IMG/VR virus record: IMGVR_UViG_3300042924_000307
Span: 1-37,758 of that record
Direction: 5' to 3' (one strand)
DNA from: a virus
Lineage: Duplodnaviria > Caudoviricetes
Length of the DNA stretch: 37,758 nt
Shown: positions 1,681 through 37,070 of the stretch, piece by piece
Position numbering within the stretch: position 1 is the stretch's first letter
Layout: each line of letters opens with the position of its first letter
The notes under the pieces: model-generated
Seen by the model: the letters and a program-made list of their open reading frames with translations, nothing else
Told to the model about the DNA's origin: nothing
The model's database searches: none
Position numbers and translations under genes: made by a program

Positions 1681-1954
1681 AAAACTGCTTGACCTTGTGA
1701 GGGAATCACCATGTCAGATCTGCGGGGCGCAGGATGGCACGGTGGTTGCCGCTCATTCAAACCAACAACGGGATGGCAAGGGAATGGGACTCAAGGCCCA
1801 CGACTACAGAATTGCGGCACTGTGCTACACCTGCCATGCCAAGATTGACCAAGGCTATGAATGGACCAAGGACGCTAAGTTCAAAGCTTGGGATGAAGCC
1901 CATCGCAGAACCATTGGATGGCTCTTTGAGGGGGGTCATCTTACTGTGCAATAG
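1667..1954 (+). CDS. Zn-binding HNH-like nuclease, DUF1364/YbcO-like
   Basis: CQIC...TVVAAH...GKGMGLK.HD...ALCYTCH..ID motif. Confidence 0.75.
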   Translation: MYRNRKLLDLVRESPCQICGAQDGTVVAAHSNQQRDGKGMGLKAHDYRIAALCYTCHAKIDQGYEWTKDAKFKAWDEAHRRTIGWLFEGGHLTVQ

Positions 1955-7900: not shown

Positions 7901-10900
7901 ACTCAAGGTTAGCGCCACCAGAACGGATAGCCGCCATAGCCTCAATTGTCATCAATCTAGCAAGAGTCTTTCTGTCTTCCGGCTTTTCTGTATCAAGTAA
8001 AGGCAAGCCTGACTGACGACGTAAATCTTGCAAATGTTGAACAACAGCAGGCAACCTACCAATATCTGGGCCTTCAAACTGCTCAATGCCAGCTTTTCCG
8101 GTTTGATAAAGCAAAGATGTGGAAGCAAGCTCTTCGGGAGTTACTTCCATCTCATCAATGATGTCGTTTAAAACCTTTTCATACTTAGGCTGTATGGCGG
8201 GGTTAAGCATTCCATACTTTTCAGTCTTAAGAGCCATCTTAGACTCGCCACCAACGGTCGGAGCAGTACCCTTAAGCTCACCCTTCTCAATCTTGGCAAA
8301 GACATCCTTGTAAGTTTGGAAGCCTTGACCAGTTAAATAACTACGCAAGGCAGAGAAGAAATTACGCAACTTATTTAAGAGCGCAGTCAGCATTCCGGGA
8401 GGCGCTTTGGTTGCATCAAAGTCACCAAATGCATCGGCAATGGCCTCTTCAATCAGGTCTTCTTCGGTCAAACCATCTTTACTAGCAATGCCGGGAGTTT
8501 TGTAGGCTTCGTAACGGCTGATGACCTTGCCATCGTCAGTACGATAGCTCTTATCCTTAAGGTACTTCTGCACCCATTCTTTACGAGCCTGACGCTCCAA
8601 CGCAGACCACTGCTGGGGAGTGAAGAACCCCAGCTCTTTCAAGGCGTGGATAGCTTCATGGCGCAGGGTTTGAATAGGTTTTTCTGCGCTCAGTGCAATT
8701 TGAATAAGTTTTGCTTGGTAGGAGCCTTCAGCGCCACCCTCAATAGCATCAACAATCTTGAGGCCAACATCCTTTAAACCAAACTTGGTAAGCAGGGCTG
8801 GAAGCTCTACTTTCAACCTGTCCAGTTTGTCTTGTTGCTCAGGCGTTACCGCTGTTGCAGGAGCGCCCGTAACCGGCAATGCTGCTCTGCGTTGTATCTC
8901 TGCGTTTACACGCTGCTGTAACGCGGGCGAGCGCTTCTTGGCCAGCTCCTGAAGGTCTGTATCGGATAGATCCTCAAAGATGGCTTGTTCGGCCTCTTCA
9001 CGGGTCTGTTTCACCGTCTGAATGCCTTCGCCTTTACGCACTACGTAAGACTTAGGTTTAACCTTTGTAACGCCAATAGGAGCAACAGACAAGGGAGTTT
9101 GGTAAGACTCTTTCCTAGCCTTCAACTCGGCAATACGGGGGAATGCTTCATCAGTTACTTTTTGGTAAGCATCCTGTGCCGCCTTAAATTCTGGAGTACT
9201 GCGGTTGCCTGCAAGGATAAGTCTTTGGACTTCCTTCTCAGCCTTGCTTATCTTGGCTTCTTCGGCTTTAAGAGATTCATCAATGCTCTTAATTTCTTCT
9301 GCGGTCAGCTTGTTTAAACCTTCAACCTGTTGGTCGGCAGATTCTTTGGTTGTATGTTCGTCCAAAACCTCATCGCCACGTCTAACTTCATAGGAGGTAG
9401 CCTGCTCCTGCTCTGCACCAACTTCTTCAGAAATGCCGTATCCAGTAGGTGTAGTACGTGAGGGGACACTAACTTTTTTGTTTTTGGTAACAACATCACC
9501 CTTACGAGCGGCATCATTAATCAAAGCATTTACAGCAGAACCCTTAAGTCCTGTGGCTGTTTCTATTGCGTTTGTAACATCTTTAAAACCTAGCTCATCT
9601 GTGCCAAGCTCATCCATCTTGGTGTTTAAACTATCAATAGCCTGCGTAAACTGCTGCGGCGTGTAGTTTGTAGCGTTTAAACCTTCTGGCAGCGACTGCG
9701 TGGATGTAAATCCGGGCAGCTTTGCAAGCGCAGTAACAGCCGCATGGAGTTGTGGCTGAGACATCTGAGCAGGATCACTGACACCAGTTGTCCTAACAAG
9801 GAAGTCCTCAAAGCCCTGCGTACCTGTTTCAACGTTCTTGGCTTGAGCAGCTTCAATGATCTGCGTGGGCGTGTAAACCTCATTGGTGTAGCCGGTCTTC
9901 GCTGCAATTATTGCGTTTAAACTTGCAGACTCTGCTGCTTTGTCTTTTCCCGGCAGCGCATCAACAATGTCATCTAGACTAAAAGAAGTGAGTGCTGGCT
10001 TACCTGTATCAATACGGTGTTGCTCAACAACTTTAAATAAATCTGCACCAAGATCATCAGCAGTCAACATTCCCAGTGGGTTCTGGGTCATGCTTAACTC
10101 ATCGTTAATCTTCTTTTGGTTGGCTGCAATCTCTTCTTGCTGTTGTTTCTGGTATTCCTGCTGGCCTTTAAATTCATCCTGCACGTACTGCTGACGCATC
10201 TCTTTTAACTTAAGAGGAGATGCTCCAGCACCCAATATGCCACCTACTAATGCGTCATTTATAGCGTTGGCTAATACACCTTGGGTTAAATCTCTTTCAA
10301 CACCAGCTTGGTTAAGTGCAACGTTTGTACCGACAGTGCTAACCGCAGACTGAAGAGCTTCAGGCAAAGCTTCAGCTGCCGTGCTTCTACCAATAGCTTG
10401 CGCTACTGTTGGCTCAGGCAACTTTAATGATGGGCCTTTGACTTCAGGTAGTTTCTTGCCTATACGACCAACAAGCGATTCAACGCCTAGTCCACCAGCA
10501 AGAGCGCCAGCCGCACCGCCAGCAAGTTGACGTGGTGCATTCTCTAAAGAGTATTCTGCGGCTTTCTGAGCCAAACGTTCCGCTTCTTCTTCAGGTATCT
10601 TTCTATCAAGCAACTCACGCTTGACAGTCTCGTAGTCTTGGCCTTTCTGACCACCGACACCCATCATTGCGCCAACAGTAGATGCAGGGAGAGAGGAGGC
10701 AACTTTGGCGGCAGTACTGGCTGATACACCTAGCGAAGTTAATCGAGCGGCGGCGGCAGGCACAGCGGCTGCAGGCATTAACGCAGTTCCAAGAACCATA
10801 GGAACTATTGAGCCAGCACCCTGTGCAAGGGTCTGTAATGGAGCTTCAGCAAAGCCGCCAAGGACAGCTTTAATTTCTTCTAATGTATTGCCTTCAGCTT

Positions 10901-11228
10901 TCTTCTTAATCTCTTGGCGGCGCAGGATCTCAGCTTGACGCTCGGGAGTCATTGCCTCGCCAGCGGCTTGCTGGAGGCTAGTTAAGCCTTTAGAGACAAC
11001 GTTACCAGCACCAGCTACGTCGGTAACTGCTTGCGCACCACCGCCTACACCCTGACCAAAAGACAGGGCTAAATCTTTAAGGGAAAAACCCGCAGGCTTA
11101 GCTTCTTGCTCAGGTTTTTGAAAAACTTGTTGAGAAATGAGGTTCTGCGCCTGCTCTGGTGAGAGGCCAGCCGGAACTTCAAATCTAGCAATCCGGCCAT
11201 CCGGCATCTCAAAACGTGCGATTGGCAT
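1941..11228 (-). CDS. Giant (3095 aa) polyvalent virion/ejection protein: zincin metallopeptidase, HhH-glycosylase-like, RelA/SpoT-like nucleotidyltransferase, ART-PolyVal and C-terminal LPD38-like domains
   Basis: HEAIH..EEAIADAF (~8430-8660); GPKIG..TMDMWFMR..QAAIW (~6980-7910); K..R..K/DLLR/GYRD/EIQ (~5310-5780); FKRWFG..YHGS..FDANQVKSATGN..DIRYS (~4505-5030); NF.RKG..PFLNA..RIP.PFEVG (~2250-3010). Last gene of the structural module. Confidence 0.9.
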   Translation of the reverse strand: MPIARFEMPDGRIARFEVPAGLSPEQAQNLISQQVFQKPEQEAKPAGFSLKDLALSFGQGVGGGAQAVTDVAGAGNVVSKGLTSLQQAAGEAMTPERQAEILRRQEIKKKAEGNTLEEIKAVLGGFAEAPLQTLAQGAGSIVPMVLGTALMPAAAVPAAAARLTSLGVSASTAAKVASSLPASTVGAMMGVGGQKGQDYETVKRELLDRKIPEEEAERLAQKAAEYSLENAPRQLAGGAAGALAGGLGVESLVGRIGKKLPEVKGPSLKLPEPTVAQAIGRSTAAEALPEALQSAVSTVGTNVALNQAGVERDLTQGVLANAINDALVGGILGAGASPLKLKEMRQQYVQDEFKGQQEYQKQQQEEIAANQKKINDELSMTQNPLGMLTADDLGADLFKVVEQHRIDTGKPALTSFSLDDIVDALPGKDKAAESASLNAIIAAKTGYTNEVYTPTQIIEAAQAKNVETGTQGFEDFLVRTTGVSDPAQMSQPQLHAAVTALAKLPGFTSTQSLPEGLNATNYTPQQFTQAIDSLNTKMDELGTDELGFKDVTNAIETATGLKGSAVNALINDAARKGDVVTKNKKVSVPSRTTPTGYGISEEVGAEQEQATSYEVRRGDEVLDEHTTKESADQQVEGLNKLTAEEIKSIDESLKAEEAKISKAEKEVQRLILAGNRSTPEFKAAQDAYQKVTDEAFPRIAELKARKESYQTPLSVAPIGVTKVKPKSYVVRKGEGIQTVKQTREEAEQAIFEDLSDTDLQELAKKRSPALQQRVNAEIQRRAALPVTGAPATAVTPEQQDKLDRLKVELPALLTKFGLKDVGLKIVDAIEGGAEGSYQAKLIQIALSAEKPIQTLRHEAIHALKELGFFTPQQWSALERQARKEWVQKYLKDKSYRTDDGKVISRYEAYKTPGIASKDGLTEEDLIEEAIADAFGDFDATKAPPGMLTALLNKLRNFFSALRSYLTGQGFQTYKDVFAKIEKGELKGTAPTVGGESKMALKTEKYGMLNPAIQPKYEKVLNDIIDEMEVTPEELASTSLLYQTGKAGIEQFEGPDIGRLPAVVQHLQDLRRQSGLPLLDTEKPEDRKTLARLMTIEAMAAIRSGGANLEWYDSVINKTLGMAGLKYPELNTDPNARSAFRVGMAITSQGLNVEDNLAFAMKVYDSFRINKRFPEIGQGADQGAMVSNFKLANALLTDMGPDLMRQFLETEFTVDEMRSAGFDIKGELKDEKVLGSSVFGPKIGFGFYSNLNGNFEPTTMDMWFMRTIGRLTGNLKDFDPELYKEQLGKFRNALNIKGDNGVFANQFNDADVEAAKTDDDAAEALARKVKSAHERDYKVNRAGYNDKTKEKSKLVGAAESMINSLDKPRDAPASGSERRNLRDVVRQMVDMVEEKYGKRVPPASLQAAIWYPEQELYKALGVRLRVTSQSYAGAMEKILTKEGYDAGQLSAAAKSGSRTTQRLANAPVAKRTQAAGTQPYRIGPLEAQQREEFLEKYRTKTVIEQEREAPRRKKVVFEVAPDPNNVELSNRWRNLDQATRLNISEKIARSIVRKAMADFDVDGYIAPQVGSYMDDTNPSFALFLNSGDSVEISKFIGFALSQDSMMVISPKPAKGLDKVSAITVDLNTQDPAKIDKIYQELRKIKVDGETPIGGQTTMNGKMILLNYSNVDSNELASLIDDQLKGDYNISVGDVYSAFPEKESYNYANPSDDPRGERGIVRERSRVLRDEATRQLQAELGEPASQRGRRKLSLPLTTEAAQKSENLRGIISDGTLYKIQEVLNTYTEKPKNLSVTPEQRAKAEQALMPYVNKANAIKPKFDKQIRDIAAEVDGEARIPGLKGLGRAAEKLILETEDGIAGNPKGSDIMDLLRATIVVNSESQIQPALELIKKKFPQVLRVKDRFTNPQDTGYRDILMNVRLPNGLAVEIQLNIPEMIKAKTSGHVLYAMSRNLVDGDPKKAMLDDLSRDLYGQAYRFAQNAISPSSAGSALANVSGGTEMSGLAAKTTEPSLSSKIGVASSAQTLAPSGTLNIPASSKESSIEESKKSLKSFYRSPEAAENAAYKKAPPTTPEFKRWFGKSIFKEEGRPMVAYHGSPNEFNIFSERKPIFVSTNPNDAEFFASLKRLGKAQGKPYIYPLWVRAEKPFDYENQDSIEEIRRTYKALLDSRNESGSLPETAIKNGIWSIIENADIQQAIKDAGFDSFYVLEGGRKNLAVFDANQVKSATGNLGDYSESKDIRYSLRNVQNEVSTLPNGAAINSSINRIAPGREQEGFFERIINAFKPQSVDALRQQFLNRYNQLGVYDKEVAKRMGGAALLADSSAESAALMSDNAAAIATMACGIEGKGGIPVFNKGYTTISNANGEKGVLEILMPLAKIGDPRIYQTYQFWAGSLRGSRLLANGTDHTYTKAEIDYAKELLVKYPEFKQVQEDWIKYNNGLMKYAVSTGVLSPEKAAEFMKYSDYIPFYRQIDGETTVGPRLFQNISGVTPPKKLKGLKEGQDVPFADFLETIVRNTQSIIQSGMKNTAAQRAIGQAMYLNVAQKRQDVSYAPGVVTVLENGKPVSYDVADQLFIDAVKSLNLPELPFLSFFAAPANLLRNLVTKDPGFMMANLMRDSLSAWVTSGAKMTPIASTIANFGRAIGGNDPIYIALRNAGVVGGYEFAAGVENSGVILGESLRRATGTQTGTEKALKPFTSLWRGLEKGTEASDAATRMAVYKATLEKTGNEAEAIFRAMEVMNFNRKGNLAIVRILTAAVPFLNARMQGLDVFYRAAFGKMATADAAAIQKSFFIRGATLMALTSMYWFLTHDEEEYLNQEQETRDNNWLFPSAGIRIPIPFEVGVLFKVVPERILEYAFGSDTGKDMADSFKRNLINTFAFNPIPQTVLPFVEARTNYSFFTMRPIVGQGMENVAKEYQMAPNTSEAAKRLGGILGESPIIVDHIMKGYTGSLGMYAIDLIDAVLFSNGDSPKPAKRFEQMPVIKRFIVDKEAKGTVTAYYDLKNSVDEVVRTVNLMERTGNVEDMADYVEKNAHLFGIRNYISSVEKQMKTLREAVIQIRSSDMSAEDKRDTLSAITQAQIAMTSNIREIKKTIAQ

Positions 11229-24105: not shown

Positions 24106-27100
24106 TTAAAGGTTAGCGGCATCCAAACGTGCCTTGAGAGATTCAATGATTGCTTGTTGCTCTTGAATGGCTTTGACAAGAATTGCTTCTGTTTTTGCCC
24201 ATCCGCTCAATGTTTTCATACCATCTGGTCTTTCACCAATAGCATCTGGATAAATTTCTTCAAACTCTTGAGCGATAAAACTAATTTGATGCCCACCACC
24301 TTCAGATGCAATGTAGTCAAATTCAACAGGACGCAACGCCATGATGTTTGCAAGCTGTGGGGGCAAGTCAACAATGTTTTCTTTCAAACGTCTATCAGAC
24401 CAAGAAGTAAAAGTTGCTTGTGAAGCACCATTTGCTGTAATTACGCCTGAAGCCGTTCCTGTATTGTTAATCGTAAACCCAAGAAACCATTGACTTGTAG
24501 TGTTTGTAGACGAGTACTTATCAACCATTAAGGCAATACTGCCATCTGCCAATGATGGGCCGCCTGCAAATCGACCAGCTGGAACTGTATCATTTGAATA
24601 TGAGTTAAAAGTTCCGTAGCTTGTAAACGATGCTGTTCCAACCAACATTTGACCGTTAGTATTAAAGATACCCCGTGGATTCCCATCCCCATCAGACAGC
24701 ACGATGTAGTTGCTTGCTGTGCGAATGTCTAGGCCGCCTTGGTTGCCGTGAAATCCACCAATGATGGTATTTTTTGTTCCAGTTGTTACAAAATAGCCCG
24801 CTCCGACTGACGCATTTGTACAGCCGACAAAAGTGTTGCCAACCCCCGTTGTTGAATAACCAGCAGTCTGCCCAATAAAAGTGTTGTAACCAGCCGTGGT
24901 TGCGCTATATCCCGCCTGATAACCGACAGCCGTGTTGTAAGATGCTGTGGTGTTGAATTGCAGTGCCGTATGACCAAAAGCCACATTTTGACCACCAGTG
25001 GTGTTGGATACTAATGCCGCATGACCAAACGCTGAATTGCTTGTGCCAGTAGTGTTTGTAGCTAAAGCCGCATAACCAAAAGCATTGTTTGCTGATGCTG
25101 TGGTGTTATTTGTAAGTGTACCGACACCAAAAGCATTGTTGTATGAACCAGTGGTGTTTGCATACATTGACCCAAAATAAGAACCACCTAAATAAGTTCC
25201 AACTGCCGTATTAGCAACGCCAGATGTGTTGAGTTGCATAGCAGTGGAGCCTACTGCGGTATTTCCTGCGCCCGTATTGTTGCGAAGCGCACTGCCGCCA
25301 ATTGCAACAATGTTGTCAGCAGTATTATTAAGACCAGCTTGAGCGCCTACTGTGGTGTTGCCACTATTGGTGGTATTGGTATATCCAGCTTGATAGCCCA
25401 AAGCTACGTTGGATATGCCAGTAGTATTGCTATATCCCGCCTGATAACCAACAGCGGTGTTGTTAGAGGCTGTGGTGTTGGTTTGTAGGGCTTGTGCGCC
25501 TAATGCCGTGTTATTTGTACCAGTAGTATTGTTGTATAAAGCATAAGCACCAAATCCAGCACTCCAAGATGAAGTTGTATTGTTTCTTAATGCGCCATAT
25601 CCCATACCAGTATTGTCAGCACCAGTAGTGTTAAGGTATAAGGATTGATACCCAACAGCGGTGTTTTCTGATGCTGTGGTGTTGGAAGAAAGTGCTGCGA
25701 TACCTACAGCGGTGTTGCTAGAACCTGTTGTGTTAAATGTAAGAGCCGCATAATTTGTTCCAGTTGTATAACCACCAACCGCCACGTTTCCAGTTCCAGT
25801 TGTATTAGCAACTAAAGCTTGCGAACCAAACGCTGTAATTAGGCCGGTGGTATTAGAATAACCTGCTTGATAACCAACAGCGGTGTTGTAGGATGCTGTG
25901 GTGTTGGACTGAAGTGCAGATTGACCGACAGCAGTGTTGTAATCACCAGTAGTGTTTGCATACAAAGATACAGCACCCAAAGCAGTGTTTGATGTGCCTG
26001 TAGTGTTAAAGCGTAGAGTTTCTCTACCTACCGCCACTCCGTTTGTGCCAGTTGTGTTGGCATAGGCGGCTTGATAACCTACAGCAGTGTTGTTAGAGGC
26101 TGTTGTGTTGCTGTAAAGCGCTTGTTCTCCAATTGCTGTATTGCTTCCACCTGTTGTATTTGAGCGAGCCGCATTAGTTCCAAAGAAGGCGTTATACAAA
26201 CCAGTTGTGTTGCTATATCCAGCCTGACCACCAAAGGCGGCAAGGTTAGCGCCAGTTGTATTGCTATATCCAGCCTGATAACCAACGGCAGTATTTTGGT
26301 TTGCTGTGGTGTTGAAGCGCAAAGCGCCATGACCTAAAGCCGTGTTAAAAGTGCCGGTTGTGTTAAATTGAAGTGCTGTGTAACCAAGTGATGAGTTAAG
26401 AAAACCTGTTGTATTAGAACCCATTGCCGCACGACCAATGGCTGTATTTTGATAGCCTGTTGTATTAGCCGCAAAAGCCCCTAAACCAAAAGCAGAATTG
26501 TCATCGCCAGTTGTATTTGCGTATCCCGCTTGATGACCGACAGCTACGTTATTTGTACCAGTCGTATTTGCGTATAACGCCTGATAGCCAACAGCGGTGT
26601 TAAATGATGCGGTGGTGTTTGAGCCAAGAGCGCCATTACCAAGTGCAGTGTTGTTAGAGCCTGTGGTGTTAACGGCTAATGCAGAATTGTATGTAGCGCC
26701 ATCCCCAGCACCAATAGCAAGATTACTTGCGCCAGTTGTATTGTTATATAAAACATTCCAACCAACAGCAGTGTTATAACCGCCCGTAGTATTTGACCGT
26801 AATGCGCCCGAACCAATTGCGGTTAAATAAATTCCGGTGGTGTTTGTCAAGGCGGCTTGATAACCAACAGCCGTGTTAAATGAGGCTGTGGTGTTGGAGA
26901 AAAGCGCTGAATAACCAACAGCGGTATTGTTTTCAGCAGTAGTGCTTGCGTTCAAAGACCCCCAGCCAATTGCGGTGTTTAAACTGCCAGTAGTGTTTGC
27001 TATTAAAGCTGAACGACCTACTACTGTATTGCTATTTCCAGTTGTGTTTGCTTTGAGTGATTCAACCCCTACAGCGGTATTTGCAATACCAGTTGTGTTT

Positions 27101-28194
27101 GCAAATCCTGATTGCCGCCCAATAAAGGTGTTGTTATTGCCAGTAGTATTACTGAAACCAGCTTGATAACCAAATGCGTCTAATGTTGCACCAGTGGTGT
27201 TTGAATACCCAGCCTGAAAACCAATCGCAGTATTGTTACCCGCTGTGGTGTTGGCTTGGAGGGCTTGCACACCCAATGCAGAATTGTTTGCACCAGTTGT
27301 ATTAGATAAAAGCGCATGAAACCCAGAAGCTGTATTACTGCCACCTGTAGTATTTAACGCAAGAGCGTTTCTTCCAGTAGCGGTATTAGACGAACCTGAT
27401 GTATTTGTAAGAAGTGCTTGTTGACCAATAGCGGTGTTTTCAGTACCAGTATTTGAACCAGCCAAAGCACTAGCACCCACCGCAGTATTGGTAGACACAG
27501 CACCTGCACCACGACCAACAGTCAGACCATAAACAGTCAAATCAGTACCAGAGTACAACAGGTTAGCAGAATCAACCAACGCACCGCCTGTGCTTGCGTA
27601 AACCACGCGACCCGAAGTCAAGCCCGAATCAGCAAGGTCAGCAACCGTCAGGCGTGTGCCGTTAAACACCATGTTGGCAGAGTCAACCAGCAAACCGCTG
27701 GTGCTTGCGTATGGCACACGAGTAGCAGTCAAAGAGTTAACGGTCAGATTGCCCGTCACTGTTAGGTTTGTAAATGTGCCCGAGCCAGAAGTGTTACTCA
27801 CCTTCACAAAGTCAGAGCCGTTCCATGCACAAACAGCAGACTCACCGGCAACAATAGTCACACCAGTCGTTGGGCCAGCACCTACCAACTTGACAGAGAA
27901 GCCGCCTGTAGTGGCGTTGATAACCGTATAAATCTTTGACTGGGCTGGCGCTGTAACCGTACGCAATGCCGTACGTGCACCTGAGAACAAGAGGATAGCT
28001 TGACGAGCCGTATTTGCAGCGCCTGTGGTTGTGGTCAGTGTGACATCAGTATCCACGCTGACGTTGGTTGTACCCGCAACAGAGGTGTCGAGAAGAGATG
28101 TAATGCTGTTGTTTACAGTGTCACCCCAAGTGCCGCTCAATTCGCCTGTGACTGGAAGTGCCAGACCTAAGAGTGATGTATATGCTGTAGTCAT
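24106..28194 (-). CDS. Long tail fibre/spike (1362 aa): ~14-aa NTT[GA]xxNTAVGxxA[LG] beta-roll repeats and C-terminal peptidase S74 intramolecular chaperone
   Basis: Dozens of NTAxG repeats (~24750-27500); SDRRLKENI..LRPVEF..FIAQE plus terminal coiled coil (~24106-24400); N-terminal G..SGTWG..N anchor. Confidence 0.9.
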   Translation of the reverse strand: MTTAYTSLLGLALPVTGELSGTWGDTVNNSITSLLDTSVAGTTNVSVDTDVTLTTTTGAANTARQAILLFSGARTALRTVTAPAQSKIYTVINATTGGFSVKLVGAGPTTGVTIVAGESAVCAWNGSDFVKVSNTSGSGTFTNLTVTGNLTVNSLTATRVPYASTSGLLVDSANMVFNGTRLTVADLADSGLTSGRVVYASTGGALVDSANLLYSGTDLTVYGLTVGRGAGAVSTNTAVGASALAGSNTGTENTAIGQQALLTNTSGSSNTATGRNALALNTTGGSNTASGFHALLSNTTGANNSALGVQALQANTTAGNNTAIGFQAGYSNTTGATLDAFGYQAGFSNTTGNNNTFIGRQSGFANTTGIANTAVGVESLKANTTGNSNTVVGRSALIANTTGSLNTAIGWGSLNASTTAENNTAVGYSALFSNTTASFNTAVGYQAALTNTTGIYLTAIGSGALRSNTTGGYNTAVGWNVLYNNTTGASNLAIGAGDGATYNSALAVNTTGSNNTALGNGALGSNTTASFNTAVGYQALYANTTGTNNVAVGHQAGYANTTGDDNSAFGLGAFAANTTGYQNTAIGRAAMGSNTTGFLNSSLGYTALQFNTTGTFNTALGHGALRFNTTANQNTAVGYQAGYSNTTGANLAAFGGQAGYSNTTGLYNAFFGTNAARSNTTGGSNTAIGEQALYSNTTASNNTAVGYQAAYANTTGTNGVAVGRETLRFNTTGTSNTALGAVSLYANTTGDYNTAVGQSALQSNTTASYNTAVGYQAGYSNTTGLITAFGSQALVANTTGTGNVAVGGYTTGTNYAALTFNTTGSSNTAVGIAALSSNTTASENTAVGYQSLYLNTTGADNTGMGYGALRNNTTSSWSAGFGAYALYNNTTGTNNTALGAQALQTNTTASNNTAVGYQAGYSNTTGISNVALGYQAGYTNTTNSGNTTVGAQAGLNNTADNIVAIGGSALRNNTGAGNTAVGSTAMQLNTSGVANTAVGTYLGGSYFGSMYANTTGSYNNAFGVGTLTNNTTASANNAFGYAALATNTTGTSNSAFGHAALVSNTTGGQNVAFGHTALQFNTTASYNTAVGYQAGYSATTAGYNTFIGQTAGYSTTGVGNTFVGCTNASVGAGYFVTTGTKNTIIGGFHGNQGGLDIRTASNYIVLSDGDGNPRGIFNTNGQMLVGTASFTSYGTFNSYSNDTVPAGRFAGGPSLADGSIALMVDKYSSTNTTSQWFLGFTINNTGTASGVITANGASQATFTSWSDRRLKENIVDLPPQLANIMALRPVEFDYIASEGGGHQISFIAQEFEEIYPDAIGERPDGMKTLSGWAKTEAILVKAIQEQQAIIESLKARLDAANL

Positions 28195-30131: not shown

Positions 30132-30976
30132 GAAACTTGAACCCTAACCTGTCCATCTCGGTAGGCATCACCACGTTGCTTACCATCACCAAGGTTTTTA
30201 TACAAAGCAATTGCCTGCATGTAACGCTCTTGAGCAAGGCCAATCATATCTGCCTCACCCTTCATGTAAACAAGAGCTTCACAGATCGTGCCGTACAGCA
30301 GTACAGAATCAAAGTTATCACCCAACCATGTAGTTCCAGCGGTAACGATAGACTCTGGGTAGTAGTAATAATGCAGCTCTGCAACGTAAGTTGCATTGGG
30401 TGTTGGGCCAACAATAAACGACAACTCGTTTGTAACCGTACCGCCAGTGACAGTAGGGCCGAACAGTGCGTAGTGCTTAGGCTCAGCCACATAAGATGAC
30501 AGAGGATAAGCAGAGCGGATGAAGTTCACATCCTTGTTTAACAAGTACAAGTAGTCACCTTGAAAGGTCACCGAGCTTGAGACTGTGGTTGCGTTGTTCT
30601 CAGTCAAGTAGATTGTAGTTCCGCTAATGCTACGAACAACGGCATTAGTCCCAATACCTGAACCTGTAACTTGCTGGCCCACCGCAATACCTGTCGTAGA
30701 TGCCACTACAATTGACTTTGCTCCGGCAGTGCCGGTAGCAGTTGTTGTGTTCTGCGGATATACCGCAAGGCTATATACAGAGAGGAAATCCTCTGGTGCA
30801 GACAAGTACTTGTTTGTTGAGGTAATCGTGCCTGTCACGTTCTTTCGCAAGTTGGCTGGCTGCGCAGTGTTATAGATGCGCTGCTCCGCCTGACGTATGA
30901 ACGTATTCATATTGTCAGTTGGGAAAGAGTTCTCGCAGTAATCGCTTACCTGCGTGACAAGCTCGGTGTAGTTCAT
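30128..30976 (-). CDS. Putative head-tail adaptor/connector protein with inserted beta-rich domain
   Basis: MNY.EL...FI.QAE.RI, P.DFL, GPTP..Y..ELHY, LLYG.I.EA pattern of adaptor proteins. Confidence 0.65.
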   Translation of the reverse strand: MNYTELVTQVSDYCENSFPTDNMNTFIRQAEQRIYNTAQPANLRKNVTGTITSTNKYLSAPEDFLSVYSLAVYPQNTTTATGTAGAKSIVVASTTGIAVGQQVTGSGIGTNAVVRSISGTTIYLTENNATTVSSSVTFQGDYLYLLNKDVNFIRSAYPLSSYVAEPKHYALFGPTVTGGTVTNELSFIVGPTPNATYVAELHYYYYPESIVTAGTTWLGDNFDSVLLYGTICEALVYMKGEADMIGLAQERYMQAIALYKNLGDGKQRGDAYRDGQVRVQVS

Positions 30977-31236
30977 GCCATCGGGCCTCTACTCATAAAG
31001 CCTTTGGTAGCTGCTCCAGCGCCACGCATTTTGATACCAGTTGTCTTTGTTGCTGGCTGTGCACGGCGACTAATATTTCCAACAGACATATTGACGGTAT
31101 TGGCATCGCTATGGTCAGGGCCAGAACCGGGATTTTCGGAAGCTTTAACAACTTTACCGGTCATGGTGTGAGGTGTGGCATAGACAGAAGCATCGCCAAC
31201 TTCTTTACCCATTAATTTTTTGCTAAATGTAGCCAT
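30973..31236 (-). CDS. Small basic protein (RGAGAATKG motif)
   Basis: GAGG RBS, coupled to the next gene. Confidence 0.7.
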   Translation of the reverse strand: MATFSKKLMGKEVGDASVYATPHTMTGKVVKASENPGSGPDHSDANTVNMSVGNISRRAQPATKTTGIKMRGAGAATKGFMSRGPMA

Positions 31237-31238
31237 GA

Positions 31239-31427
31239 TTAGCCTCGTTTCTGTGCGGCAATTTTTGCCAAGTTACGGCCCATAGACAACATATCGGCAT
31301 TGGTTTTACCCTTACCTTTACCTTTTCCACCGTGCATCATTTTAGCAACGGGGCCGCTATCACCATAGTTTTTACCTTCGGTCTTGCCTTTTTTAGCAAT
31401 ACCGTCAGCTGATTTTGTAAATGCCAT
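31239..31427 (-). CDS. Small basic protein (ADGIAKKGKT; MMHGG)
   Basis: AAGGAG RBS supports the MAFTKS start at 31427. Confidence 0.75.
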   Translation of the reverse strand: MAFTKSADGIAKKGKTEGKNYGDSGPVAKMMHGGKGKGKGKTNADMLSMGRNLAKIAAQKRG

Positions 31428-31437
31428 AATTAACTCC

Positions 31438-31821
31438 TTAAGATATTGATACTGTACCAACAAATGTTGTTGCCACCAAGTAGTTTGGTGTCAATCCTGC
31501 ATCAAAAAACCTAGCTCCGCCAACAGGTGACCAGCCCCACTGAATGTCTCGTGAACCACCTGATGGATTGCCGCTTGCGTTTACACCCGAAGTCACATAA
31601 GTTGTGTCCTTGCGAGGGTTACGCAAAGCCTGTGGATCATCCACTGGAAACGTTCCAAGCATTAACTGCGGTTGATCTGGATCCCAACACTCAGGGCAAA
31701 CCAACAACTCATACTTACGCTGCTTAATAATTTCATTCTTAAGCTTTTTGAGTTTAAACTGCTGGCCGCAGCGATCACATTCAGCAATCGCTATCTTGCC
31801 GGATGCGAAACGATTACCCAT
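31438..31821 (-). CDS. Zinc-ribbon protein (CDRC...CPEC-W-D.D.PQ)
   Basis: Two CxxC pairs; TAATG coupling. Confidence 0.75.
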   Translation of the reverse strand: MGNRFASGKIAIAECDRCGQQFKLKKLKNEIIKQRKYELLVCPECWDPDQPQLMLGTFPVDDPQALRNPRKDTTYVTSGVNASGNPSGGSRDIQWGWSPVGGARFFDAGLTPNYLVATTFVGTVSIS

Positions 31822-33250: not shown

Positions 33251-33778
33251 TCAGCACTTTCCGCCGTAGTTCATCTTGATCATTGTGCCTTTAGTTTTAC
33301 CTTTAGTGGCACAACCATCTGCACGACTAGACGCAGAAGAAACAGAGCCACCTTTAGCAAACTTACTGCCGGGGAAGCTATTGTCAGGACGATCTGGTGA
33401 AAACACTTTTGGCTTTGGCTTTTGCGTAGTTTGTTTTGGAGCAGACCCGGGAGGTGTGTAACGAGGCGTTCTCATATCACGAGTGGCATCAATAGAATCT
33501 GCAGCTTCTTGTGCTGCTTTATCAGGAGAATCACCAGCGGTAGGATCTTTGGAAACACGACGCTTTAAACCACGCTCACGGTTTAGATAATCGCGCAAAC
33601 TCATGCCGGATTCTTCTAATTCTTTCTTAGAAACAACTCGGTTCTTGGGCTTTTCAGATTTAGGAGCTTTTTCATTTTTTGGGCCAGCGCCCATAGATGA
33701 AGCAATGTCCATAGCTTCTTGGGAAGCATTTGCCTCCTCTAAAATAGAACCGCCATCTTCATAAAATCTACGTTTCAT
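33251..33778 (-). CDS. Small basic disordered protein with YEDGG, FAKGG..ADGCATKGKTKG..MNYGGKC
   Basis: AAGGAG RBS; shared motif family. Confidence 0.75.
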   Translation of the reverse strand: MKRRFYEDGGSILEEANASQEAMDIASSMGAGPKNEKAPKSEKPKNRVVSKKELEESGMSLRDYLNRERGLKRRVSKDPTAGDSPDKAAQEAADSIDATRDMRTPRYTPPGSAPKQTTQKPKPKVFSPDRPDNSFPGSKFAKGGSVSSASSRADGCATKGKTKGTMIKMNYGGKC

Positions 33779-33787
33779 GTTAGCTCC

Positions 33788-34159
33788 TTAGCACTTGCCG
33801 CCACGTTTCATGGCAATCATTGTTCCTTTGGTTTTGCCTTTAGAAGCAATGCCATCAGGTGTTTTGCCAGTCTTTACAGCGCCCATCTTAGATGCAGCCA
33901 TACCGCCACCAGCCAGTTTAGTCATAGAAGAACCTTTGTGCAAACGGCCTTCGTGTTTGTTTACGGCCTTCTGCATCATTTTCTTGTCCATTTTTACGTC
34001 TTCGTGTTTCATGTCGCCACCTTTAGAAAATTTACGGCCTTTGTCAGCCTCGTTAAACTCTTTACCCACAGACTGTGGGACGCCTGCTTTCTTAGCAAAC
34101 GCTGGGTTGTTAGCCACCGCCGCCATGAAATTGTGTTGCTTCTTGCTTGTGCTTGGCAT
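33788..34159 (-). CDS. Small basic protein MPSTSKKQHNFM... with FSKGG, LAGGG, DGIASKGKTKG, MKRGGKC
   Basis: TAATG coupling; shared motif family. Confidence 0.75.
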   Translation of the reverse strand: MPSTSKKQHNFMAAVANNPAFAKKAGVPQSVGKEFNEADKGRKFSKGGDMKHEDVKMDKKMMQKAVNKHEGRLHKGSSMTKLAGGGMAASKMGAVKTGKTPDGIASKGKTKGTMIAMKRGGKC

Positions 34160-34428
34160 TACAGCACTCGACCCTTAGTCTTACCACGTTGGGCAATACC
34201 ATCAGCGCGTTTAGAAGCGGAACCAACTTTACCGCCTTTATTAAATTTTTTAGACCAGCTAACTCCATACCCCTTACCAACTTTGGCGGGTGCTAACGTA
34301 CCACCACCTAGAGGGATGCTTACAGCATCACGAAGACTTTTGCCAAGTGATGATGGCTCCCCAAAGTTTGGTGTGCCTTCACTTCTGGGTGGTGGTGATG
34401 GTGGTGGTGTAGGTGTTCCATTTGACAT
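34159..34428 (-). CDS. Small basic protein with Pro-rich N-terminus, FNKGG..ADGIAQRGKTKG
   Basis: AAAGGA RBS; shared motif family. Confidence 0.7.
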   Translation of the reverse strand: MSNGTPTPPPSPPPRSEGTPNFGEPSSLGKSLRDAVSIPLGGGTLAPAKVGKGYGVSWSKKFNKGGKVGSASKRADGIAQRGKTKGRVL

Positions 34429-34680: not shown

Positions 34681-34913
34681 GCCCTCAATGCTTTATTGAT
34701 CCGTGAATCCGGGTCGTTTGCCGTCTTTGCACTTGTCAGTTTCTTCTTCATGCCACTCATCCTTGCACAGAAAGAGTCGCGCCGTGAGCCGCCTTCCGGC
34801 TGGGGAGGTTTCAAGTTCATGCCTTGCGCTTTCGCGGAGGCCCGACCCTTGGCGTTCAAGCCGCCCTTCTCGGACTTGCCTTCTTTCCTCTGCCATGCTG
34901 GACTCTTAGCCAT
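34668..34913 (-). CDS. Small basic protein, DUF6321-like
   Basis: GGLNAKGR..LKPP..RRDSFCARM..DPDSRINKALRAWNC. Confidence 0.7.
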   Translation of the reverse strand: MAKSPAWQRKEGKSEKGGLNAKGRASAKAQGMNLKPPQPEGGSRRDSFCARMSGMKKKLTSAKTANDPDSRINKALRAWNC

Positions 34914-35409
34914 AATAAACGTTCGCAGAAAGTAAGTTACTCATGGTCATGTAGATACCGTTTCTTACCAAAATCCCCTCACCGGGAATCAAAGCAAAAT
35001 TACCAAAGGTATCACCTGCGCCAGTATCGTAAGTAGCAAGCCACAAAGATGCGTATGCCGCCGCTGTTCCGGCGACAATAGTTCCAGAGTTAATATCTGT
35101 CACTGTGAAAGTGTTTGCGCCAGTGCGTGTAACTGTGTAGTTACCGTTTGTGCCAGATGATCCGCTTGCTGTTGCAAACGTAAGCCCGACTACATTGCCA
35201 GTAACCAACCCGTGTGCGTTTCTGGTAACAGTGATAAGAGTACCCGCCCGCTCGTATGTAGCTGAGACAGGTGCTGTGGTTGTGTCAAAGATGTCTAGTG
35301 TTCCAGCCGTAGCTGTGCCAACCATAGATATACCTTTGAGCCTATTGCGACCCAAAACAACAAAACCTGAGTTGTTCAGGTGGCCCGATTTAACGTCAGT
35401 TTGCATCAT
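34906..35409 (-). CDS. Putative virion structural protein with inserted beta-barrel (HGL..G..V..F) domain
   Basis: AAAGGAG RBS favours the ATG at 35409; MQTDVK..R.RLKG..IPGEGIL..GIY core. Confidence 0.7.
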   Translation of the reverse strand: MMQTDVKSGHLNNSGFVVLGRNRLKGISMVGTATAGTLDIFDTTTAPVSATYERAGTLITVTRNAHGLVTGNVVGLTFATASGSSGTNGNYTVTRTGANTFTVTDINSGTIVAGTAAAYASLWLATYDTGAGDTFGNFALIPGEGILVRNGIYMTMSNLLSANVYYG

Positions 35410-35423
35410 AATCAATCTCCTTT

Positions 35424-35445
35424 AAAAAAGGGGCCGAAGCCCCTT
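35424..35445 (-). terminator. Rho-independent terminator GGGGC-TTCG-GCCCC-TTTTTT
   Basis: Stem 35430-35443 with cUUCGg loop and 6 U, just after the stop of 35453..36001. Confidence 0.85.
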
Positions 35446-35452
35446 GGGTTGA

Positions 35453-36001
35453 TTAGGAATCTGCGAAAGGTGTAGCGACAATGCCGGAACCAATAACGTT
35501 TCCAGTCACCATGTACTTATCAGCAGCAATTGCCACGATTTGAATCCATGTGCCAGCAACGCCGCCGGTGGTTGTACCGTTCAAGTTAATGAAGTCGTTA
35601 GACGAACCGTTAGCAGAGAAGGCAACTACAGCGCCAGATGAGTCTGAATCAATAGAAATAATAGCGCCAACATACAAATCGCCAGAACCAGAAGTTGTAC
35701 CAATCTTCAATGAACTTGTAGAGATGGTGGTAGGAACCCAGATCGTGTAAACAACGCCTTCGTTGTTAGCTGTGCTTGGGTCTTGACCGGGGCCAGATGT
35801 AACAGAGTTTGTTGAAACGTTAATTGCTGGCAATGTCAAAGTGACTGCTGCAGCCAAAGAACCACCAACAGCGATGATACGACCGCCGTGAGCTTCTGGG
35901 CTTAATGTGGTGCTTGTGGTGATGTCAACAACAGTAGCTGGACCTTGTTGATAAATGCCGCCCAATGAACGAACTGGGCCTTGAAACGTAGTGCGTGCCA
36001 T
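35453..36001 (-). CDS. Putative capsid-surface/decoration protein (MARTTFQGPVRS...)
   Basis: T/S/G/V-rich beta protein directly after the MCP; AAGGA RBS; has its own promoter and terminator. Confidence 0.7.
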   Translation of the reverse strand: MARTTFQGPVRSLGGIYQQGPATVVDITTSTTLSPEAHGGRIIAVGGSLAAAVTLTLPAINVSTNSVTSGPGQDPSTANNEGVVYTIWVPTTISTSSLKIGTTSGSGDLYVGAIISIDSDSSGAVVAFSANGSSNDFINLNGTTTGGVAGTWIQIVAIAADKYMVTGNVIGSGIVATPFADS

Positions 36002-36008
36002 GATGTAT

Positions 36009-36081
36009 TCCTTACATGCAAGTTGGGGTGTTCTGTCTGCATGTCGTCAGCCGGGACTGTCAGAACACCGGATAAGCCCGG
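36009..36081 (-). ncRNA. Structured cis-regulatory leader RNA with three interleaved helices (double pseudoknot)
   Basis: P1 36077-81/36051-55 (5 bp), P2 36061-69/36027-35 (9 bp), P3 36038-44/36014-20 (7 bp); all perfect complements. Confidence 0.7.
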
Positions 36082-36090
36082 ATTACTATG

Positions 36091-36119
36091 TTTATACCAC
36101 TACGTTTAAACCAATGCAA
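36091..36119 (-). promoter_or_regulatory. Sigma70-type promoter TTGCAT-N17-TATAAA with extended -10 TG
   Basis: -35 at 36114-36119, -10 at 36091-36096, 17-bp spacer, immediately after the MCP terminator. Confidence 0.7.
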
Positions 36120-36120
36120 C

Positions 36121-36151
36121 AAAAAAGGGGCCGAAGCCCCTTCTTTTTTTT
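36121..36151 (-). terminator. Rho-independent terminator after the major capsid gene (potentially bidirectional)
   Basis: GGGGC-TTCG-GCCCC stem 36127-36140 with T-runs on both strands. Confidence 0.88.
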
Positions 36152-36158
36152 GAACCTA

Positions 36159-37070
36159 TTAGGCTCCGGGTGAACCGAAGATGCCCAAAGGATCAGACAC
36201 GCCGAAGCTGTAACGCTCACGGGCTTTGTAACGAACGTTACCTGTGTCAAAGTCACCGTCCATGCTGGTAGACATGGGAGTGCGGATGAAGTGCTTCAAA
36301 CCGTTAGGCACATCAGTCAACAGGAACCAAGCATTGGTGTCTGTCAAGTAGTGGTTAACGCAGTAGCCATCAGGGATAGAACCGTTGTTCTTCAATGCGT
36401 TGATGTCATTGTCGGCAGTAGAAACACGGAGTTCGGTTTCAAGCAGACGAGTGGCAACGAATTGCAGAGCAGGTGGAATCACCAACTTTTTAGGTTTGGC
36501 GGCGATAAGCAAGCTACGCTCATCTGTCCAAGCAGCGATCTGAATGACGGCATTCTCAAGAGAAGTCTCGTTCAAGTCGGCAGGAGTAGATGGAGTGTTA
36601 CTGTTAGTACCACCGGAGACCAATGGGTGGGCAGTGTTACACAAAGTAACGCCGTCACCGTAAGTCACGCCAGAGCCAGAAAAAGCGTTGTTCAGGACGA
36701 AAGCGGCCTTAACTTGCTTTGTGTAAGCCATACCACGGGCCAGAGCCTTGGTATAACGTGAAGACAGGCTGTCGTACAAGTTATCTTCCACAGCTTCCTC
36801 TGTGATGGCAAAGCCCATCGCAATGGTTTCGTGGGTGTAACGTGCAGTGAAAGCTTCCTGCGCATTGTCATAAGCGATGGCAGCGCCCTCGTTTTTAACA
36901 GGTGCGGCAGCAAAGCCAGACAGCTTTGTCTCTTCTTCAAAGCTACGCTCAGATGATTCTGTTTCGTAGATTTCTTTGTGCTCTTCGCCGTATTTAGCGT
37001 ACTCAAGACCGAACAATGCGTTCAAGCCGGGGAGTAATTCTTTGAGCAGTTGTGCGCGTGAAATAGCCAT
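36159..37070 (-). CDS. Major capsid protein (HK97 fold, Mu gpT-like annotation class)
   Basis: 303 aa; MAISRAQLLKELLPGLNALFGLEY, KNEG..I.YD, P.KLVIPP.L, YKARERYSFG..DP; strong RBS and terminator. Confidence 0.88.
   Translation of the reverse strand: MAISRAQLLKELLPGLNALFGLEYAKYGEEHKEIYETESSERSFEEETKLSGFAAAPVKNEGAAIAYDNAQEAFTARYTHETIAMGFAITEEAVEDNLYDSLSSRYTKALARGMAYTKQVKAAFVLNNAFSGSGVTYGDGVTLCNTAHPLVSGGTNSNTPSTPADLNETSLENAVIQIAAWTDERSLLIAAKPKKLVIPPALQFVATRLLETELRVSTADNDINALKNNGSIPDGYCVNHYLTDTNAWFLLTDVPNGLKHFIRTPMSTSMDGDFDTGNVRYKARERYSFGVSDPLGIFGSPGA

What the first reader, a model, noticed from the sequence alone, without database searches (positions are those of the whole stretch)
36009..36119. 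Double-pseudoknot leader RNA between a dedicated promoter and the RBS of the gene after the major capsid gene
Seen: on the mRNA the order is P1a CCGGG, P2a GGTGTTCTG, P1b CCCGG, P3a ACATGCA, P2b CAGAACACC, P3b TGCATGT, then directly AAGGA and ATG. Three perfect interleaved helices in ~70 nt are unlikely by chance. The linkers carry repeated GAC triplets (GACAGT, CTGACGAC, CAGAC). The gene is insulated by a terminator on each side and has its own sigma70-like promoter. Inference: a riboswitch-like element, protein-binding translational operator or small ribozyme controlling one virion gene. It may match an orphan environmental motif (the Polynucleobacter-1 motif is one to test; I cannot confirm this), whose function would still be open.
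Basis: partly seen in the sequence, partly recalled or inferred. Interest (0 to 1): 0.78.

Follow-up and report, generated by a model that had tools for sequence, protein, structure and literature searches.

The report
Threefold knotted RNA leading capsid-spike gene
The 70 letters in front of a predicted capsid-surface gene of this phage keep the same knotted, three-armed base-pairing pattern across a large group of lake and ocean phages and end at the ribosome landing site, so they likely act as a switch that limits how much of that protein is made, possibly by binding the predicted three-part protein itself.

Summary
In detail: the three interleaved helices are present (0 of 200 shuffled windows hold such a set) and are kept by compensatory changes in related phages. 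The core is a three-way junction whose three strands each read G-A-C; the 5' and 3' tails pair into the loops of its two short arms.

No Rfam family matches (Polynucleobacter-1 tested, negative). The closest known RNA is the orphan Mu-gpT-DE motif (RF03012): same gene slot, same junction, different periphery, below model cut-off. In every layout seen, some helix abuts or covers the Shine-Dalgarno sequence or AUG, and in Mu-gpT-DE-type copies codon 2 tracks its pairing partner. The element follows the downstream gene, not the capsid gene. That gene varies in its body but keeps a short N-terminal arm; here it encodes a predicted trimeric capsid spike.

Most likely it is a translational operator. 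I favour feedback by the trimer on a pseudo-threefold junction (0.38, untested). The scan noted this element before in other genomes (33 notes). New variant of a known kind.

The parts
36159..37070 (-). major capsid protein gene (Mu gpT-like), upstream
   Evidence: PF25209 E 1.1e-12, PF10124 E 1.2e-5; phrog_371 major head E 4.7e-20
36121..36140 (-). terminator-like hairpin (36140-36127) with six U after it; an A-run on the other side makes it two-way
   Evidence: sequence; listed on the + strand
36091..36119 (-). sigma70-like promoter candidate: -35 at 36119-36114, TG plus -10 at 36099-36091; start inferred near 36085
   Evidence: sequence; not listed; -10 enriched in homologues; start site not shown
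36077..36081 (-). P1a, 5' tail; pairs with P1b (pseudoknot 1) or with 36072-36068 (alternative hairpin P0)
36068..36072 (-). alternative partner of P1a (P0), overlapping the outer end of P2a; lineage-specific
   Evidence: in 34 of 100 homologues, 0 of 53 of the two marine pattern sets; changes with P1a and P1b
36061..36069 (-). P2a, 5' strand of the closing stem
   Evidence: 9 of 9 pairs with changes on both sides, 96.6% of cells paired
36059..36061 (-). junction strand 1 (G-A-C; unpaired A36060)
36048..36059 (-). arm 2: 3-bp helix P3 whose loop holds P1b (36055-36051)
   Evidence: 2 of 3 pairs change on both sides, first pair C-G in 62 of 62
36046..36048 (-). junction strand 2 (G-A-C; unpaired A36047)
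36037..36046 (-). arm 3: inferred C36046-G36037 pair plus G36045/A36038; its loop is P4a (36044-36039)
   Evidence: 4-5 bp long in most minimal forms
36035..36037 (-). junction strand 3 (G-A-C; unpaired A36036)
36027..36035 (-). P2b, 3' strand of the closing stem
36014..36019 (-). P4b, 3' tail; pairs with P4a (pseudoknot 2) and ends directly before the SD
36009..36013 (-). Shine-Dalgarno-like AAGGA
   Evidence: sequence
35453..36001 (-). 182-aa gene: predicted homotrimeric capsid spike or decoration protein; first ~15 codons encode the arm shared by all genes in this slot
35424..35443 (-). second terminator-like hairpin, the same 14 letters as the first, with six U
   Evidence: sequence; not listed

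Best explanation
The element is a conserved, doubly pseudoknotted three-way-junction RNA that lies directly before the ribosome-binding site of a predicted capsid-spike gene and likely works as a translational OFF operator, probably bound by the predicted trimeric product of that same gene. Shown by comparison: the helices, the strand, the link to the downstream gene, and the overlap of the fold with the initiation region. Inferred steps: the leader is transcribed from just before P1a; unbound, it breathes (P0 competes with P1 at near-equal energy) and ribosomes load; when trimers exceed the free capsid sites, their three N-terminal arms, which meet at the trimer axis, would bind the pseudo-threefold G-A-C junction, lock P1 and P4 (or the closing stem in other layouts) and block initiation; new capsids would draw the trimers off and release translation.
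For: Structure: on a MAFFT alignment of 62 distinct copies, 83.8% of cells pair against 58.7% in shuffles and 28-39% in slid registers; covariation score 0.652 against 0.218. P1 and P4 strands find a partner in their own leader in 196 and 191 of 211 cores against 14% and 9% when swapped (protein-selected only: 45 and 40 of 59 against 19% and 11%). G-U outnumber A-C 126 to 27 in P2, so the mRNA strand folds. Translation link: P4b ends between 3 nt inside and 6 nt before an SD core in 98 of 99 scored copies; in copies without an upstream P4b, P4a reads GCC with codon 2 GC and CCC with codon 2 GG in 27 of 28; in 16 of 16 hand-picked minimal leaders the SD is in arm 3 and the AUG in the closing stem. 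The element stays next to the downstream gene across 240-1660 nt of inserted DNA. Ligand: 342 of 348 readable downstream ORFs match the arm motif while 189 complete bodies fall in 18 clusters; the only RNA letters kept in all layouts are the three junction strands. The product matches the knob of the trimeric Pa223 capsid spike (Foldseek E 1.9e-4; Z 9.7, rmsd 2.3, 100 aligned), which is anchored by an N-terminal domain (passages). Three copies score 0.94 against a best control of 0.00 (mark reached by 20 of 30 solved homo-pairs and 1 of 23 single chains; contacts agree at least 93%, pLDDT at least 89), with residues 1-24 in the interface; the pass may reflect likeness to solved trimers. Precedent: T4 gp32 binds a leader pseudoknot (passage).
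Against: No binding, expression or start-site data. RNA and arm may travel together only because recombination swaps the gene body downstream of the arm. Six related loci keep the arm and lack the RNA (L547, L550, L551, L556, L561, L562). The arm has one mostly basic position (R or K in 132 of the aligned proteins) and no known RNA-binding fold. The arm-3 C-G pair is invariant in 23 of 23 letter-free-anchored cores, so it does not covary there; only L445 (U-A) and L477 (U-G) vary, by eye. The P2 closing pair is A-U in 29 of 211, and the two knots break the symmetry. The codon-2 link rests on 4 supported independent pairs (3-4 agree, none opposes, p 0.125). In this window P4 abuts but does not cover the SD. 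P0 is absent from both marine pattern sets.
Confidence: 0.38

Rival explanations
1. A translational operator read by another protein: free major capsid protein, scaffold, the conserved 200-aa gene before the capsid gene, or a host protein. It would time spike synthesis to capsid assembly.
For: Same structural and positional evidence. The capsid gene ends within the fetched upstream DNA in 174 of 201 RNA-selected loci and is far more conserved than the downstream body. P22 scaffold autoregulation is a precedent (recalled; one search gave no paper that I read).
Against: The RNA stays with the downstream gene, never with the capsid gene, when DNA is inserted between them. Relatives with a similar capsid gene lack it (L447, L448, L452). 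One copy per genome here, so no regulon points to a shared regulator.
Confidence: 0.2
2. A ligand-free translation tuner and 5'-end stabiliser: the fold sets a fixed spike-to-capsid ratio and shields the message.
For: The RNA starts a few bases after a -10-like box; a compact knot at the 5' end could slow decay; some lineages drop it.
Against: A plain hairpin would do this. It does not explain why the three junction strands persist when arms shrink to one pair and both knots are lost, or why P0 changes together with P1.
Confidence: 0.2
3. A riboswitch for a small molecule or ion held in the three-adenosine junction, turning spike synthesis off by closing P4.
For: Invariant junction letters, two pseudoknots, a last helix at the SD and a competing hairpin are riboswitch-like (established knowledge of preQ1 and SAM-II type leaders). 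In L625 P4a pairs with the SD itself.
Against: The gene is a virion part, not metabolic. Only 7 columns are invariant in 62 copies, four of them in pairs. Junction letters vary in some copies (first A to G in L608; a changed junction in L445). No riboswitch family matches.
Confidence: 0.15
4. A self-cleaving ribozyme or processing site.
For: Compact double pseudoknot; the window holds a CUGANGA-like stretch (36050-36044; hammerhead motif recalled).
Against: That stretch is part of P3 and changes to CAG with its partner. Strand order differs from HDV-like ribozymes (recalled). No Rfam ribozyme hit. The core tolerates SD and AUG inside it.
Confidence: 0.03
5. A DNA-level site or an RNA acting in trans, such as a packaging RNA forming rings by pairing P1 and P4 between molecules.
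For: Loop-tail pairings could form between molecules; Rfam types Mu-gpT-DE as an sRNA.
Against: G-U bias marks one strand; no terminator follows the element; its 3' helix tracks the SD and codon 2.
Confidence: 0.04

Closest known systems
Mu-gpT-DE RNA motif (Rfam RF03012; 53 positions, typed sRNA; function unknown to my knowledge; origin in Weinberg et al. 2017 recalled, supplement unreadable)
   Same: Same slot, between a gpT-like capsid gene and a gene with the same N-terminal arm (72.3 bits in roseophage CRP-902). Same core: closing stem, A, C-G-closed arm, A-C, 6-9 nt strand, G-A, closing stem. Bridging copies (L464, L469, L470, L481, L485, L491) have this window's P1 knot and long P2 but pair P4a with the start codon as RF03012-type copies do.
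   Different: RF03012 has a short closing stem holding the SD, a long hairpin instead of P3 plus P1, and no modelled pseudoknot; its model ends at the AUG and misses the start-codon pairing. CaCoFold lists it under loop and non-Watson-Crick types, not new pseudoknots. The models do not recognise each other. It is named a downstream element of gpT; the data make it a leader of the next gene.
T4 gene 32 leader pseudoknot (autogenous translational operator)
   Same: Phage leader pseudoknot next to the initiation region of the gene whose product is said to bind it (passage in PMC10690425).
   Different: gp32 is an ssDNA-binding protein and its leader is a simple pseudoknot (recalled). No homology tested or claimed; this is a works-like comparison only.
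Pseudoknot riboswitches that close on the SD (preQ1, SAM-II; recalled)
   Same: Last helix abuts or overlaps the SD.
   Different: No model match; three-way junction with two loop-tail knots; virion gene context.
Pa223 capsid spike gp52 (PDB 9NY6), for the downstream protein
   Same: Fold match to the C-terminal knob (chain residues 195-294); trimer anchored by an N-terminal domain.
   Different: 12-13% identity, no triple beta-helix; the same small domain also matches baseplate and tailspike proteins (Z 8-10), so capsid location rests also on gene position.

Membership tests
Mu-gpT-DE (RF03012) | score at or above the gathering threshold of 49 bits | tested here: not met
   no match at E<=10 in the window's genome; none
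Mu-gpT-DE (RF03012) | lies just downstream of a Mu gpT-like capsid gene | tested here: met
   PF10124 hit; 78 nt from the capsid stop to P1a
Mu-gpT-DE (RF03012) | closing stem, single A, C-G-closed inner helix, A-C, linker, G-A | tested here: met
   consensus
Mu-gpT-DE (RF03012) | inner hairpin of 5 or more pairs, and SD inside the closing stem | tested here: not met
   3-bp P3 plus P1 knot; SD lies after P4b
Polynucleobacter-1 (RF01718) | covariance-model match (141 positions, 37 bits) | tested here: not met
   0 candidates, no match at E<=10
known riboswitch or self-cleaving ribozyme classes in Rfam 15 | model match over the element | tested here: not met
   no hit at gathering score on any four-helix copy; weak hits fall mostly on terminators, all below cut-off
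riboswitch (functional class) | binds a small ligand without protein and changes expression | not testable with these tools
   needs in-line probing and reporters
autogenous translational operator (T4 gene 32 type) | structure overlaps or abuts the initiation region of its own gene | tested here: met
autogenous translational operator (T4 gene 32 type) | the gene product binds the RNA and represses translation | not testable with these tools
   no protein-RNA test available
capsid spike or decoration protein (downstream gene) | fold and oligomer like solved trimeric capsid spikes | tested here: met
   predictions only:
capsid spike or decoration protein (downstream gene) | present on the virion surface | not testable with these tools
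   the slot gene of DSL-LC04 is annotated 'cement protein'; no PDB sequence match

The most novel reading that the evidence does not exclude
A natural pseudo-threefold RNA junction (three G-A-C strands) is read by the three N-terminal arms of a capsid-decoration trimer, the same arms that anchor it on the capsid. The RNA then acts as a decoy for a capsid threefold site and counts free trimers: an assembly-feedback switch shared by thousands of aquatic phage sequences, and the function of the orphan Mu-gpT-DE family.
Probability: 0.3. Interest if true: 0.88.

Novelty: new variant of a known kind. Interest (0 to 1): 0.66.

Why it matters
It gives an orphan Rfam motif a much larger family (pattern scans estimate about 790, 770 and 2300 IMG/VR stretches for three subtypes), a corrected role (leader of the next gene, not a 3' element of the capsid gene), a minimal core and a testable partner. 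It sits in cultured phages (HTVC023P, HTVC027P, DSL-LC04, CRP-902), so it can be tested; HTVC023P-type phages are among the most abundant marine phages (recalled). RNA-level feedback on a capsid decoration protein, or symmetry-matched reading of an RNA junction by a trimer, would be new to my knowledge. If it is instead a riboswitch, it would be one controlling a virion part.

Tried and rejected
Rfam scans of the window and of 43 loci found no family over a four-helix copy. Polynucleobacter-1 rejected. Weak RF03012 hits elsewhere in MinM2 and DSL-LC04 (24.9 and 16.2 bits) lie before unrelated genes and look like chance SD/ATG matches. blastn of the leader against cultured phages found nothing; homologues were reached through proteins. 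Pfam, PHROGs and PDB sequence searches gave no family for the 182-aa protein. A deep alignment could not seed a locus scan. MAFFT put P1a and P4b of different subfamilies in different registers, so the tool's P1 (55% paired) and P4 (82%) figures understate them; the swap test was used instead, and the pair tables are fitted to the structure. Metatranscriptome runs share only 13-17% of words; contigs of four runs from four studies cover the region with relatives but cannot show transcription, strand or ends: no evidence either way. MAG hits of the capsid protein span unrelated taxa and look like binned phage contigs, so no host is assigned. A kink-turn reading was considered and dropped: the P2 closing pair covaries G-C/A-U, leaving no tandem G-A pairs. 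Literature: 'Mu-gpT-DE' is held by 2 records of one paper; searches found no description of this fold. The Weinberg 2017 supplement and the alignment archives and one table of Fremin 2023 (files 1, 2, 4) could not be searched, so a partial earlier model there is not excluded.

Full report
Observation. A letter-free search for three interleaved perfect helices of 5, 9 and 7 bp within 80 nt finds only this site in the window and none in 200 shuffled windows. The element lies between a Mu gpT-like major capsid gene with a terminator-like hairpin, and a 182-aa gene with no Pfam or PHROG family. The promoter candidate misses the last T of the -10 box and was not listed by the scan.

Family. The downstream protein brought in 80 close loci, and 49 distinct leaders among them already showed compensatory changes. 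tblastn found the protein in pelagiphages HTVC023P and HTVC027P, whose leaders have the same layout with different pairs. Patterns from the three subtypes match an estimated 790, 770 and 2300 IMG/VR stretches (120 fetched each; a few are chance). To avoid selecting on the RNA I also fetched loci by two other slot proteins, by the capsid protein in MAGs, and 10 of 22 annotated phage records with this capsid type beside the two pelagiphages. Of 30 capsid-selected MAG loci in which a gene with the arm motif was found, 26 have a junction score of 10 or more; shuffled leaders reached 9 in 0-5 of 20. A model built from 62 copies scores the window 68.2 bits (it is in the training set), HTVC023P 70.2, DSL-LC04 51.9 and HTVC027P 51.0, missed the Manatee Spring copy L449 and all Mu-gpT-DE-type copies given, and finds one copy in the window's genome.

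Structure. Anchoring on junction letters only (400 leaders, 211 distinct cores), the P1 and P4 inner strands find a partner in their own leader in 196 and 191 cases against 14% and 9% for swapped leaders; in the 59 protein-selected cores, which include other layouts and some mis-anchored rows, 45 and 40 against 19% and 11%. Sixteen P1 and eleven P4 helix sequences occur among 100 copies. G-U outnumber A-C 126 to 27 in P2, which points to the mRNA strand. The repeated GAC are the three strands of one junction, each reading last G of one helix, unpaired A, first C of the next. An earlier scan note's title ('symmetric ... three-way-junction') prompted this reading; I then tested it. With an anchor that uses only P2 pairing and spacing, 23 of 40 protein-selected cores have A at all three positions (the other 17 are terminators or shifted registers), and all 23 have C-G at the start of both short arms; the second pair of arm 3 is G/A in 12, Watson-Crick in 8, other in 3. 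In 16 minimal leaders picked by eye, both knots are gone, the three GAC remain, and arm 3 has 1-5 pairs (4-5 in 12) with the SD inside it. So the window's RNA is a three-way junction whose 5' tail pairs into the loop of arm 2 (P1) and whose 3' tail pairs into the loop of arm 3 (P4). In the window's lineage P1a has a second partner (P0), found in 34 of 100 copies, none of 53 in the two marine pattern sets, and changing together with P1 (L061 and L593 by eye). P0 and P1 have similar nested energies (-5.7 and -6.0 kcal/mol).

Closest known. No Rfam family covers any four-helix copy and Polynucleobacter-1 fails. Roseophage CRP-902 has Mu-gpT-DE (RF03012, 72.3 bits) in the same slot, with the same junction but a short closing stem that holds the SD and a long inner hairpin. 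RF03012 does not detect the window. Bridging copies join the two layouts. I reached this link before reading earlier notes, which agree. In print I found the name only in the CaCoFold paper (passage, section 12 part 1 and supplement file 8 part 1), where it is listed under loop and non-canonical covariations. The Weinberg 2017 main text does not mention gpT (passages) and its supplement was unreadable.

What it controls. The RNA stays next to the downstream start codon when 240-1660 nt lie between it and the capsid gene. P4b ends from 3 nt inside to 6 nt before an SD core in 98 of 99 scored copies. In 32 distinct copies without an upstream P4b, the arm-3 strand pairs with the start-codon region by 4 or more pairs in 30, against 103 of 504 when the codon-2 type is swapped; GCC goes with codon 2 GC and CCC with GG in 27 of 28 (Fisher p 1.4e-6, not corrected for kinship); on a protein tree both traits change 7-8 times, but only 4 supported independent pairs exist (p 0.125). 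A -10-like box precedes P1a in 66 of 91 against 33.0 expected. Thus four layouts all place a helix on or beside the initiation region.

The gene. Of 348 readable ORFs after RNA-selected hits, 342 match a loose N-terminal arm motif (T-T-F-x-G-P-V type); 189 complete proteins split into 18 clusters beyond residue 20. The window's protein folds with pLDDT 85, matches the Pa223 capsid spike knob and related baseplate and tailspike domains, and is predicted to form a trimer (0.94 against 0.00; 20 of 30 solved homo-pairs and 1 of 23 single chains reach the mark; contacts agree at least 93%, pLDDT at least 89; three copies and my alignment lie outside the calibration, and likeness to solved trimers may drive the pass) with residues 1-24 in the interface. 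Pa223's spike is a trimer anchored at threefold axes by residues 2-41 (preprint passages). DSL-LC04 annotates its slot gene as cement protein.

Mechanism. Cis control of translation is well supported by comparison, not by experiment. The ligand is open. The variable gene body cannot be it. What stays constant is a pseudo-threefold junction in the RNA and a short arm in a trimeric protein, which suggests autogenous feedback: free trimers bind the junction and close the initiation region, capsids titrate them away (0.38). Against this: co-travel can come from recombination alone, six loci keep the arm without the RNA, the arm is barely basic, and symmetry may only reflect a stable fold. Rivals: another protein (0.20), ligand-free tuner (0.20), small-ligand riboswitch (0.15), trans or DNA role (0.04), ribozyme (0.03). 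Metatranscriptome contigs gave no usable evidence.

Verdict. A real, widespread, uncatalogued variant of an orphan motif, with a corrected role and a specific testable partner. The scan noted it before in at least 33 genomes. Novelty: new variant of a known kind; interest 0.66.

Noticed in passing
window 35424-35443 and 36121-36140: The two terminator-like hairpins share the same 14 letters. The second ends directly before the SD of the next gene (34906-35415), leaving no room for a promoter, so it must be read through.
   Followed up: no
L443 1528-1631 (MinM2; records of the same length and capsid score are filed as Pag-Yong1 and Pra-JY27): The same slot holds a different two-hairpin leader; a strand in the second loop is complementary both to the first loop and to the SD region, by eye. 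Three records of 65,014 bases carry three different host names.
   Followed up: partly
L445 3940-4028 (phage 023Pt_psg01): All helices kept, but junction letters changed and arm 3 closed by U-A and extended; a natural test case for the junction.
   Followed up: partly
L204, L206, L229, L444, L520, L591 and others, around P4b: In a subset, P4b lies in the loop of a further 2-4-bp hairpin with varying pairs, making P4 a loop-loop contact.
   Followed up: no
L474, L475 1190-1300: A diverged layout with a long inner hairpin and a changed arm 3; only a weak model hit (17 bits).
   Followed up: partly
L004, L011, L049, L590, L593, L600, L617 (between capsid stop and leader): Other DNA of up to 1.6 kb is often inserted between the capsid gene and the promoter of the leader; the inserted genes were not identified.
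   Followed up: no
window 1941-11228 (-) and 24106-28194 (-): A 3095-aa ORF, not examined, and a 1362-aa ORF with many short N-T-A-x-G repeats, probably a tail fibre.
   Followed up: no
window 33251-34428 (-), 30973-31463 (-): Several small lysine-rich ORFs sharing short K/A-x-G-G motifs near their ends, between head and adaptor genes.
   Followed up: no
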